This document shows, piece by piece, positions 888 to 3,604 of a stretch of 64,000 nt of DNA. Source of the DNA: an uncultured virus (IMG/VR IMGVR_UViG_3300032304_000757) (Duplodnaviria; Heunggongvirae; Uroviricota; Caudoviricetes); IMG/VR virus record IMGVR_UViG_3300032304_000757, one strand, 5' to 3'. Below the pieces are notes generated by a model that was not told where the DNA came from, did no database searches, and saw nothing but the letters and a program-made list of their open reading frames with translations. The first letter of the stretch is position 1. Every line of letters starts with the position of its first letter. A program made the translations under genes and the position numbers.

Positions 888-902
888 TATCTTCAAAAGA
901 TG

Positions 903-931
903 TTGACATTCTTGTTAAAGAGTGTTATACT
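903..931 (+). promoter_or_regulatory. sigma70-type promoter with extended -10
   Basis: TTGACA-17 nt-TATACT preceded by TGn. Confidence 0.85.
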
Positions 932-937
932 AGTTTT

Positions 938-1190
938 GTTGTGTAGCAATACACAACCGGTGATGTAAGAGGTAGATGAGGATAGACGCTGTTATCGCTT
1001 CATGCGATGACAAACTTAACTCCGGCAAACGTCTGAACAACGTTTCGTGCTTGAGTGCCCCGATTCTTAAAATCTGTCAATTGCTGATCGGAAATATTTA
1101 GGCCTTTGTAGCCTGTATATTGTACATTGTCAAAGGAATACTATTCCGTTGTCATTTGTCCGGTCTATTACTTGACCTTTTACTGATCCG
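938..1190 (+). ncRNA. putative structured ncRNA 1 (family unknown)
   Basis: No ORF; GCAA-capped hairpin 938-957; closing stems 965-973/1175-1183 and 981-987/1163-1169; internal hairpins. Confidence 0.65.
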
Positions 1191-1200
1191 TCATTATAAT
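1172..1200 (+). promoter_or_regulatory. possible sigma70-type promoter for rpoZ
   Basis: TTGACC-17 nt-TATAAT, overlapping the 3' strand of ncRNA 1. Confidence 0.55.
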
Positions 1201-1213
1201 TAAAGGACAAACC

Positions 1214-1444
1214 GTGGCTCGATATACATCAGAAAAAGCAGCAGAAATGGCAGGGGGCAGGTTTGACCTAGTACTCATGGCCAGTCAAAGAGCAAGAGAA
1301 CTAAAGAATGGTCATATTCAACGAGTAGAAGGCGAAGATGCCACTACTGTTGTTACAGCATTGAGAGAAATTGAAGCAGGCAAGTATACTAAAGAAGAAT
1401 GGATCAAATCTATTCCACACACAGAAAAAAGGAAATACAAATGA
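1214..1444 (+). CDS. rpoZ: RNA polymerase omega subunit homolog
   Basis: MARYTSE...RFDLVLMASQRAREL...ALREIEAG matches the omega pattern; GTG start with AAGGA RBS. Confidence 0.88.
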   Translation: MARYTSEKAAEMAGGRFDLVLMASQRARELKNGHIQRVEGEDATTVVTALREIEAGKYTKEEWIKSIPHTEKRKYK

Positions 1445-2013: not shown

Positions 2014-2017
2014 CAAA

Positions 2018-2219
2018 CCCCGTCTTACTCTTTTCTACGTTAATGAAAGAGCGTCCCTGAAACGAGAGAACAGGGGGTACACTAGGACCTGACCTTACAG
2101 TCCCTGTCTAGGGATCCTGAAAACAGCCTAGGGTGAGGACTAACACCTTTCCAGAAGAACAAATGTTATGGACGGAGTAACTGCCCAGTCTAGGGCTCAT
2201 GTGGTGTGAGTAGCTAGAC
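2018..2219 (+). ncRNA. putative structured ncRNA 2 (family unknown)
   Basis: ORF-free, GC-richer stretch with serial hairpins (2054-2076, 2108-2131, 2132-2147, 2188-2219) and long-range pair 2020-2025/2170-2175. Confidence 0.55.
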
Positions 2220-2333
2220 AACTTTAAAGAACAGATTGATTAGTGTATATACCGGCCGGCAAGCTGGAAGTACACAATTTGTGTTGCCGCACAAGAGACA
2301 CCATATCCGTCTTTCAGTCTGTTTCTTAAAGTT
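2220..2333 (+). ncRNA. putative structured ncRNA 3: four-way junction with kissing loops
   Basis: 20-bp closing stem (one mismatch), three hairpins, complementary loops CGGCAA and TTGCCG. Confidence 0.7.
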
Positions 2334-2344
2334 AAATAGTCTAT

Positions 2345-2420
2345 CGCGGGATGGAGAAGGTGGTATCTCGGAAGTCTCATAAGCTTCAGATCGTCGGTTC
2401 GACTCCGACTCCCGCAACCA
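2345..2420 (+). tRNA. tRNA-Met(CAT), initiator-like
   Basis: C1xA72 mismatch, A11-U24 pair, anticodon CAT, ACCA end. Confidence 0.9.
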
Positions 2421-3385: not shown

Positions 3386-3604
3386 ATGGCAAAAGATGAT
3401 TTAATTGAACTTACCGGAGTTGTTGATGAAGTTTTGCCGGGCAGTATGTATAGAGTAAAACTCGACAATGTGCCAAACATAATTACCTGTTATACAGGCG
3501 GAAAATTAAAACAACATAAGATTAAGATTATCTTAGGTGATCGTGTAAAGTTGGAAGTCAGTGCCTACGATCTTACCAAGGGTCGTATAACATATCGCTT
3601 GTAG
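3386..3604 (+). CDS. infA: translation initiation factor IF-1
   Basis: 72 aa, [33 protein letters not shown]. Confidence 0.97.

What the first reader, a model, noticed from the sequence alone, without database searches (positions are those of the whole stretch)
2220..2333. Compact four-way-junction RNA with perfectly complementary kissing loops
Seen: closing stem 2220-2239/2314-2333 (20 bp, one A.C mismatch). P2 is GTGTA/TACAC plus CCGGC/GCTGG with loop CGGCAA (2257-2262). P3 is TTGTG/CACAA with loop TTGCCG (2284-2289), the exact reverse complement of the P2 loop. P4 is GAGAC/GTCTT. It lies immediately 5' of tRNA-Met, not of a CDS. Inference: a tertiary-folded RNA released by tRNA processing (aptamer, ribozyme or protein decoy). 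I cannot match it to a named family.
Basis: partly seen in the sequence, partly recalled or inferred. Interest (0 to 1): 0.75.

Follow-up and report, generated by a model that had tools for sequence, protein, structure and literature searches.

The report
Kissing-loop RNA cassette of lake phages
Just before a tRNA gene, this large uncultured lake phage carries a small four-armed RNA whose two complementary loops stay unchanged while its stems mutate in matched pairs; it is one of many interchangeable folded RNAs that related phages carry at this spot, and its job is unknown.

Summary
The fold is real. 2220-2333 is a four-way junction (z -6.3) with no Rfam match. I found 9 further distinct homologs, all directly 5' of a tRNA. 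On 9 aligned sequences, 17 of 44 pairs change on both sides (0/500 shuffles). The loops CGGCAA and UUGCCG are invariant (12 of 12 columns, against 16 of 53 elsewhere in the core), although the window is only 40-43% identical in that core to the three distant members compared. The kiss is therefore conserved but shows no covariation. Best reading: a stable RNA cut from the tRNA operon that acts by shape on a host factor (decoy or aptamer; inferred, about 0.4). Expression, ends and function were not tested. This scan reported similar cassettes and a similar four-way kissing RNA before, on other DNA.

The parts
2220..2333 (+). Whole cassette: 114-nt four-way-junction RNA
   Evidence: single copy in the window
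2220..2239 (+). P1 5' strand; the outer part is the stalk shared by unrelated cargos, the inner part is family-specific
2243..2275 (+). P2 arm: P2a, internal loop whose position slides between members, P2b; arm length 13-14 / 12-13 nt in all 10
2257..2262 (+). L2 CGGCAA, invariant in 10 of 10
   Evidence: loops left free in the patterns
2279..2294 (+). P3, 5 bp in all members, 3 of 5 pairs with two-sided change
2284..2289 (+). L3 UUGCCG, invariant in 10 of 10, exact complement of L2
2295..2313 (+). P4 (4-5 bp) with a 9-10-nt loop; AUA at 2303-2305 is invariant (possible tertiary contact, inferred)
2314..2333 (+). P1 3' strand
2334..2344 (+). Tail and tRNA leader, 11 nt here, 0-24 nt in homologs
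2345..2420 (+). tRNA-Met(CAU); the unpaired first position suggests the initiator type (inference)
2188..2219 (+). Conserved hairpin that abuts the slot; kept in minimal form in L003, which lacks the upstream RNA
2017..2219 (+). Separate conserved upstream ncRNA of about 200 nt, present whichever cargo follows
903..931 (+). Sigma70-like promoter match (11 of 12); no + strand terminator match between 1200 and 3500
   Evidence: consensus match only
1172..1200 (+). Second sigma70-like promoter match (11 of 12)
   Evidence: consensus match only

Best explanation
A small non-coding RNA gene of a large freshwater phage. SHOWN from sequence: a conserved four-way junction with two invariant, complementary hexaloops, mounted on a stalk of about 20 bp that about 27 unrelated folds also use, at a slot between a conserved hairpin and a tRNA, where related phages exchange or stack cassettes. 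INFERRED: (1) it is co-transcribed with the tRNA operon from promoters near 903 and 1172; (2) RNase P cutting at the tRNA +1 site plus trimming frees its 3' end, and an endonuclease (RNase E in the A/U linkers, or RNase III in the stalk) frees its 5' end; (3) the stalk hides both ends and makes it stable; (4) P2 bends at its internal loop so that L2 pairs with L3 of the same molecule, and the invariant junction bases and L4 AUA pack against this; (5) the compact shape binds in trans to one host factor, most likely as a decoy or inhibitor of an RNA-binding defence or RNA-metabolism protein, which would explain a rapidly swapped repertoire. My odds: real structured RNA 0.93; L2-L3 pair 0.8; mainly intramolecular 0.55; trans-acting decoy or aptamer 0.4.
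For: Family: 10 distinct sequences, all 5' of tRNA-Met (9) or tRNA-Gly (1). On 9 of them, 95.7% of cells pair, 17 of 44 pairs change on both sides, 0/500 shuffles reach that, and slid controls pair 37-49%. RNAalifold independently gives the same four helices. A further variant in contigs of runs X3 and X7 (two studies) shows 8 listed differences: 7 at paired sites, all pair-keeping, including one compensatory pair, and 1 in L4. Loops are invariant in 12 of 12 columns against 16 of 53 other core columns, and the P2 tip next to L2 has 0 of 6 invariant columns. Arm lengths are fixed within 1 nt. No stop-free frame is shared: 5 of 10 have none on either strand. Stalks have G-U 49 versus A-C 10 on the tRNA strand in 24 family representatives. 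Median stalk length is 20 in 27 representatives. The 105 distinct first cassettes fall in 31 clusters, of which I judged 27 real. Tandem cassettes occur, and other cargos follow position 2220 in X3 and X7. Precedent for a phage RNA decoy: pseudo-ToxI (PMC3475682, abstract).
Against: No compensatory change in the kiss. The 10 sequences are only about 4 lineages, and the P1 columns were partly fixed by my search pattern. Single-sequence MFE gives the four-way fold for only 3 of 10 members; in 3 of 10 (L416, L423, L432) it pairs L2 with L3 as an ordinary nested helix, 1.5-2.5 kcal/mol better than with the loops held open. P2a is loose (79.6% paired). The core alone folds only weakly better than shuffles. 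Stalks are related by descent, so the G-U bias is not 59 independent trials. There is no RNA evidence for expression or ends, and no evidence for any binding partner. The family is rare, and 5 of 5 plus 3 of 3 records at least 90% complete lack it, so it is not essential to the group.
Confidence: 0.45

Rival explanations
1. The loops pair between molecules, L2 of one with L3 of the next, giving dimers or rings (pRNA-, ROOL- or GOLLD-like multimers). Compatible with a trans-acting role.
For: The commonest sister cargo has a palindromic hexamer in its central loop region in 51 of 52 distinct sequences, in six different palindromes, which is the kind of covariation used to support intermolecular bridges in OLE and GOLLD (PMC12286853, passages). 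A full 6-bp kiss from a 5-bp P3 and a longer P2 is a tight closure (geometric reasoning, not modelled). Invariance would preserve cross-pairing.
Against: This family's loops are non-palindromic and adjacent, P2 has a built-in bend, and arm lengths are fixed. Intramolecular loop-loop helices of 5 bp are known (B. subtilis Alu).
Confidence: 0.2
2. Only the stalk matters, as a processing or stability signal for the tRNA operon; the cargo is a passenger with no trans function.
For: The stalk is conserved in sequence and length across 27 cargos; cargos are exchangeable; one weak contig in X3 skips the cassette (depth 2.35, side 29).
Against: A passenger would not keep 12 loop bases, the junction bases and L4 AUA invariant at 40-43% core identity with compensated inner stems.
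Confidence: 0.12
3. The loops are invariant because one reads a fixed outside RNA and the other masks it. L2 (GGC in its middle) could pair 5 bp with the tRNA-Gly(GCC) anticodon loop, and L3 resembles that loop.
For: Invariance rather than covariation fits an outside constraint; 4 of 5 tRNA-Gly(GCC) genes in my loci have the loop UUGCCAA, sharing UUGCC with L3.
Against: L3 has 6 nt and G where that tRNA has A37; a Y-U-N-N-N-R start arises by chance about 1 time in 16 per loop; the tRNA-Gly genes next to these cassettes are TCC.
Confidence: 0.07
4. A self-cleaving ribozyme of an undescribed class that helps release the tRNA.
For: A four-way junction with a loop-loop contact and invariant unpaired bases; theta ribozymes sit next to phage tRNAs (PMC10879173, abstract).
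Against: No Rfam ribozyme hit; hammerhead core words in 0 of 10; GUC occurs in all 10 but not in an internal loop and not at one position; both ends are locked in P1, so a cut inside the core would not free the tRNA; the gap to the tRNA varies from 0 to 24 nt.
Confidence: 0.07
5. L2 and L3 pair as an ordinary nested helix in an alternative fold (a switch), not as a kiss.
For: It is the MFE in 3 of 10 members.
Against: It costs 9.3 kcal/mol in the window, ensemble probability 0.0. It excludes P2b and P3, which are 100% paired with 3 of 3 and 3 of 5 two-sided changes. No CDS follows that could be regulated.
Confidence: 0.06
6. A DNA-level mobile element with terminal inverted repeats (MITE-like).
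For: Shared inverted ends, variable interior, tandem copies.
Against: G-U 49 versus A-C 10 on one strand; always the tRNA strand; one copy in the window; the interior covaries as RNA.
Confidence: 0.03

Closest known systems
Phage T4 RNAC and RNAD
   Same: Small non-tRNA RNAs from a phage tRNA region, function unknown (PMC3014915 and PMC9697503, passages).
   Different: No sequence match in 50,697 phage records for the window region or for L432. A shared stalk with swappable cargos is not mentioned in the passages I saw.
ROOL and GOLLD RNAs
   Same: Phage RNAs near tRNA islands, function unknown, held together by kissing loops, some intermolecular (PMC12286853, passages).
   Different: Those are several hundred nt; this is 114 nt; no Rfam hit; multimer formation untested here.
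Bacillus subtilis SRP Alu domain
   Same: An end-closing helix, two adjacent hairpins with a Watson-Crick loop-loop helix, then a further helix (PMC4231752, passages).
   Different: Alu has two 3-way junctions and a UGU linker and is part of SRP RNA; here there is one four-way junction, the linker is AAK, and no S domain.
Theta (HDV-like) ribozymes
   Same: Structured RNAs adjacent to phage tRNAs (PMC10879173, abstract).
   Different: They are described as processing tRNA 3' ends, with an HDV fold; this RNA lies 5' of the tRNA, is end-closed and has no HDV hit.
PhiTE pseudo-ToxI
   Same: A phage non-coding RNA that neutralises a host defence by mimicry (PMC3475682, abstract); functional model only.
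   Different: A repeat array mimicking a known antitoxin; no repeats, no known model RNA and no partner here.

Membership tests
Any Rfam 15 family | Match to a covariance model | tested here: not met
   No hit over the element at E<=5 in the window or at E<=2 in 7 homolog loci
SRP Alu domain | Two adjacent hairpins with a loop-loop Watson-Crick helix | tested here: inconclusive
   Complementary and invariant, no covariation
SRP Alu domain | UGU linker between the kissing hairpins; two 3-way junctions with helix 2 | tested here: not met
   Linker is AAU or AAG in 10 of 10, single four-way junction
SRP Alu domain | Joined to an S domain | tested here: not met
   P4 is 4-5 bp with a 9-10-nt loop; no SRP hit
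Hairpin ribozyme | Four-way junction | tested here: met
   feature from PMC12118343 passages
Hairpin ribozyme | Conserved internal loops A (N*GUC) and B on two arms | tested here: not met
   Only P2 has an internal loop and it varies; GUC is at or in helices at different places; AGAA (motif recalled) 0 of 10
Hammerhead ribozyme | Three-way junction with CUGANGA and GAAA core (motifs recalled) | tested here: not met
   0 of 10 for both words inside the core
Theta / HDV-like ribozyme | HDV-like fold with cleavage site at a tRNA 3' end | tested here: not met
   Lies 5' of the tRNA in 10 of 10, end-closed, no HDV hit
Any self-cleaving ribozyme | Self-scission in vitro | not testable with these tools
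   Needs a bench assay
tRNA mimic / Y RNA-like | T-loop motif or 3' CCA (motifs recalled) | tested here: not met
   0 of 10 for UUCRA and for terminal CCA
T4 RNAC/RNAD-type stable RNAs | Encoded within a phage tRNA region | tested here: met
T4 RNAC/RNAD-type stable RNAs | Accumulates as a discrete RNA during infection | not tested
   Reads were laid on DNA runs; listed RNA runs held only 5-7% of the words and were contigs
T4 RNAC/RNAD-type stable RNAs | Sequence homology to RNAC or RNAD | tested here: not met
   No blastn match in the phage collection; two unrelated 28-nt hits in a coding gene for L432
ROOL / GOLLD | Homo-multimer through kissing loops | not testable with these tools
   Needs SEC-MALS or cryo-EM

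The most novel reading that the evidence does not exclude
These large lake phages keep a library of RNA effectors: one standard stalk of about 20 bp for excision and protection, onto which dozens of independently evolved folds are mounted and swapped like anti-defence genes, each binding a different host defence or RNA-metabolism protein. This kissing-loop four-way RNA would be one effector, possibly acting as a self-assembled multimer.
Probability: 0.3. Interest if true: 0.85.

Novelty: new variant of a known kind. Interest (0 to 1): 0.58.

Why it matters
The role of small stable RNAs in phage tRNA regions has been open since T4 RNAC and RNAD. This finding gives a 114-nt family with a covariation-backed fold, defined invariant bases and natural variants, so probing, multimer and self-cleavage tests are cheap. 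It also gives about 27 alternative cargos in one frame, which separates stalk function from cargo function. If the cargos are decoys, phage counter-defence includes a diversified RNA repertoire that protein-centred screens miss. Limits: the host is uncultured and no function is shown.

Tried and rejected
No whole genome is held for the window. Patterns built from the window's own stems failed because the stems diverge: one search gave 120 loci with no homolog (best nhmmer E 0.81; its printed list was partly cut); one search gave 0; one search gave 8, all chance; one search gave 10, of which 1 is true (L270); one search gave 4 in GTDB genomes, all chance. One search gave 25 hits, 7 members and 18 without any model hit (the members were in the model). 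Model R1 on 92 phage records found no new family apart from completing L385 as L446, plus one stalk-only hit at E 0.016; 10 of the 102 records I had picked were not searched. A mismatch hot spot at stalk positions 9-11 as a nuclease register was not found: 1, 0 and 1 mismatches in 27. A 10-nt match between the L4 region and the RNAC probe printed in PMC9697503 is rejected as chance, since only AUA is conserved there. The overlapping ORFs 2214-2417 and 2240-2512 on the - strand are rejected. A two-copy cofold was 7.9 kcal/mol below two monomers, but I did not inspect the structure and the program cannot model kisses, so it is not used. Run X5 does not cover 2248-2334 and RNA runs had small shares; neither is evidence. 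Literature searches listed no paper whose title or abstract start describes this family or the stalk system. The library lacks most subscription papers. For PMC10690425 only 3 of 6 listed supplement files were searched (no hit); its alignment archives and large PDFs could not be read and may contain this family or a sister cargo.

Full report
Observation. 2220-2333 folds into P1 (19 pairs and one A.C), P2 (6 + 5 bp around a 3x2 loop), P3 (5 bp) and P4 (5 bp) around one junction, at -40.2 kcal/mol, z -6.3. L2 CGGCAA and L3 UUGCCG are exact complements; the after-the-fact chance is 0.0026, or 0.026 with G-U. The core without P1 is only modestly stable (z -2.0, 19 of 500 shuffles), so one sequence alone could not settle the matter. 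Rfam has no match.

Setting. The first 2.7 kb hold 5 tRNA genes, an RNA polymerase omega-family gene (1214-1444), a SutA RNAP-binding-domain gene after tRNA-Met and, further on, IF-1. Relatives are IMG/VR contigs of up to 383 kb, and the only cultured matches to the 190-aa neighbour are 4 Caulobacter phage records at 27% identity. I infer a large uncultured phage of Proteobacteria. Runs X3 (lake water) and X7 (freshwater) hold contigs across the cassette. Promoter-like sites at 903 and 1172 and no + strand terminator match before 3500 suggest one transcript.

The slot. Of 17 loci found with the 190-aa protein, 7 share the upstream RNA of about 200 nt and none matched the element itself. The 105 distinct first cassettes form 31 clusters; I dropped 4 by eye as chance and kept 27. 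They share a nearly continuous stalk of median length 20 with a conserved sequence (positions 3-6 fixed by the pattern). G-U outnumbers A-C 49 to 10 on the tRNA strand in 24 representatives, which points to RNA pairing, although the stalks are related. Cassettes also occur in tandem and away from the upstream RNA (L003, L016). In X3 and X7, other contigs continue at 2220 into different cargos, and one weak contig skips the cassette.

The family. L270 differs at one base. Two distant members and one cut-off member appeared. A pattern on P1 alone, leaving both loops free, gave 25 hits with 7 members, 5 of them new. With L446 there are 10 distinct sequences in about 4 lineages, all 0-24 nt before tRNA-Met (9) or tRNA-Gly (1). 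On the 9 aligned, 95.7% of cells pair and 17 of 44 pairs change on both sides, with 0/500 shuffles reaching either value and slid controls at 37-49%; P2b and P3 are 100% paired, P4 88.9% and P2a 79.6%. RNAalifold gives the same four helices. The X3/X7 variant has 10 differences on each contig, of which the tool listed 8 inside the element: 7 at paired sites all keep a pair, one pair is compensatory, and none is in L2 or L3; 2 were not shown.

The kiss. All 12 loop columns are invariant, against 16 of 53 other core columns; the window is 40-43% identical in that core to L416, L424 and L440; the stem bases flanking L2 have no invariant column. Two separately constrained loops that happen to be exact complements are unlikely, so I put pairing at 0.8. 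But 6 of 6 pairs never vary, so covariation proof is lacking. Against the model, single-sequence MFE gives the four-way fold in 3 of 10 members and a nested L2-L3 helix in 3 of 10; that fold costs 9.3 kcal/mol in the window and contradicts the compensated P2b and P3. Fixed arm lengths and a bend in P2 favour an intramolecular contact. A sister cargo with six alternative palindromes in 51 of 52 sequences shows that cargos in this frame can be built to pair between molecules.

Mechanism. Release by RNase P at the tRNA and an upstream cut, protection by the stalk, and trans action by shape are inferences from anatomy and general knowledge of tRNA processing; none was tested. A conserved frame with a diverse, exchangeable, non-essential cargo is the pattern of accessory host-conflict loci, so I favour a decoy or aptamer (0.4). 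Multimer, passenger, tRNA-Gly reader, ribozyme, switch and DNA element are listed as rivals.

Known systems. It works most like T4 RNAC and RNAD in setting (PMC3014915 and PMC9697503, passages) and like ROOL and GOLLD in using kissing loops near tRNA islands (PMC12286853, passages). It resembles the B. subtilis Alu domain in helix order but fails the UGU and two-junction tests (PMC4231752, passages). It fails hairpin, hammerhead, theta and T-loop tests (PMC12118343 passages, PMC10879173 abstract and outline). PMC3475682 (abstract and outline) is the decoy precedent. PMC10690425 (passages) may hold the family in supplements I could not read. Searches listed no description of it.

Earlier notes of this scan (unchecked AI notes, not counted as support). 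e1-5883328 describes a four-way RNA with invariant complementary hexaloops between tRNA-Pro and tRNA-Leu; I could not compare sequences, and look-ups by sequence and by loop words found no link. e1-6014961, e1-7961014 and e1-6060531 describe shared stalks or swapped cassettes, and e1-6174448 matches the upstream RNA.

Verdict. A real, uncatalogued phage RNA family with a covariation-backed four-way fold and a conserved but not covarying kiss, within a swappable-cassette system. New variant of a known kind; function unknown in fact, decoy or aptamer most likely; interest 0.58.

Noticed in passing
window 2017-2219: A separate conserved ncRNA of about 200 nt ending in a hairpin; 14 of 24 consensus pairs have two-sided changes in 11 sequences; no Rfam hit.
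   Followed up: partly
window 890-1213: A conserved non-coding stretch of about 300 nt before the omega gene, matched in 15 of 17 related loci, and moved next to tRNA-Cys in L014/L015; probably another uncatalogued ncRNA.
   Followed up: no
L022 513-642 and relatives (130-140-nt cargo): The commonest cargo has a T-loop-like arm and a central palindromic hexamer that switches among six palindromes (51 of 52 distinct sequences), suggesting a homodimer of a tRNA-elbow mimic.
   Followed up: partly
L099 (reverse strand, 313-433 as oriented) and relatives: A 121-nt four-way cargo with an invariant CCCGGG palindrome in a loop in 6 of 6 sequences.
   Followed up: no
window 1214-1444, 2436-2617, 3386-3604: Phage copies of host transcription and translation factors inside or beside the tRNA region: RNA polymerase omega family (PF01192), SutA RNAP-binding domain (PF20661) and IF-1 (PF01176).
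   Followed up: partly
L005, L006, L007, L008, L010: Related phages carry permuted tmRNA genes near the same 190-aa gene.
   Followed up: no
L440 1688-1744: A weak match to Dictyostelium Class I RNA (28 bits, gathering score 41.5, E 0.14) between tRNA-Gly and tRNA-Pro; may be another stem-closed spacer.
   Followed up: no
L016 4309-4420, 5669-5787, 5985-6189: Three different stalk-closed cassettes spread through one tRNA region.
   Followed up: no
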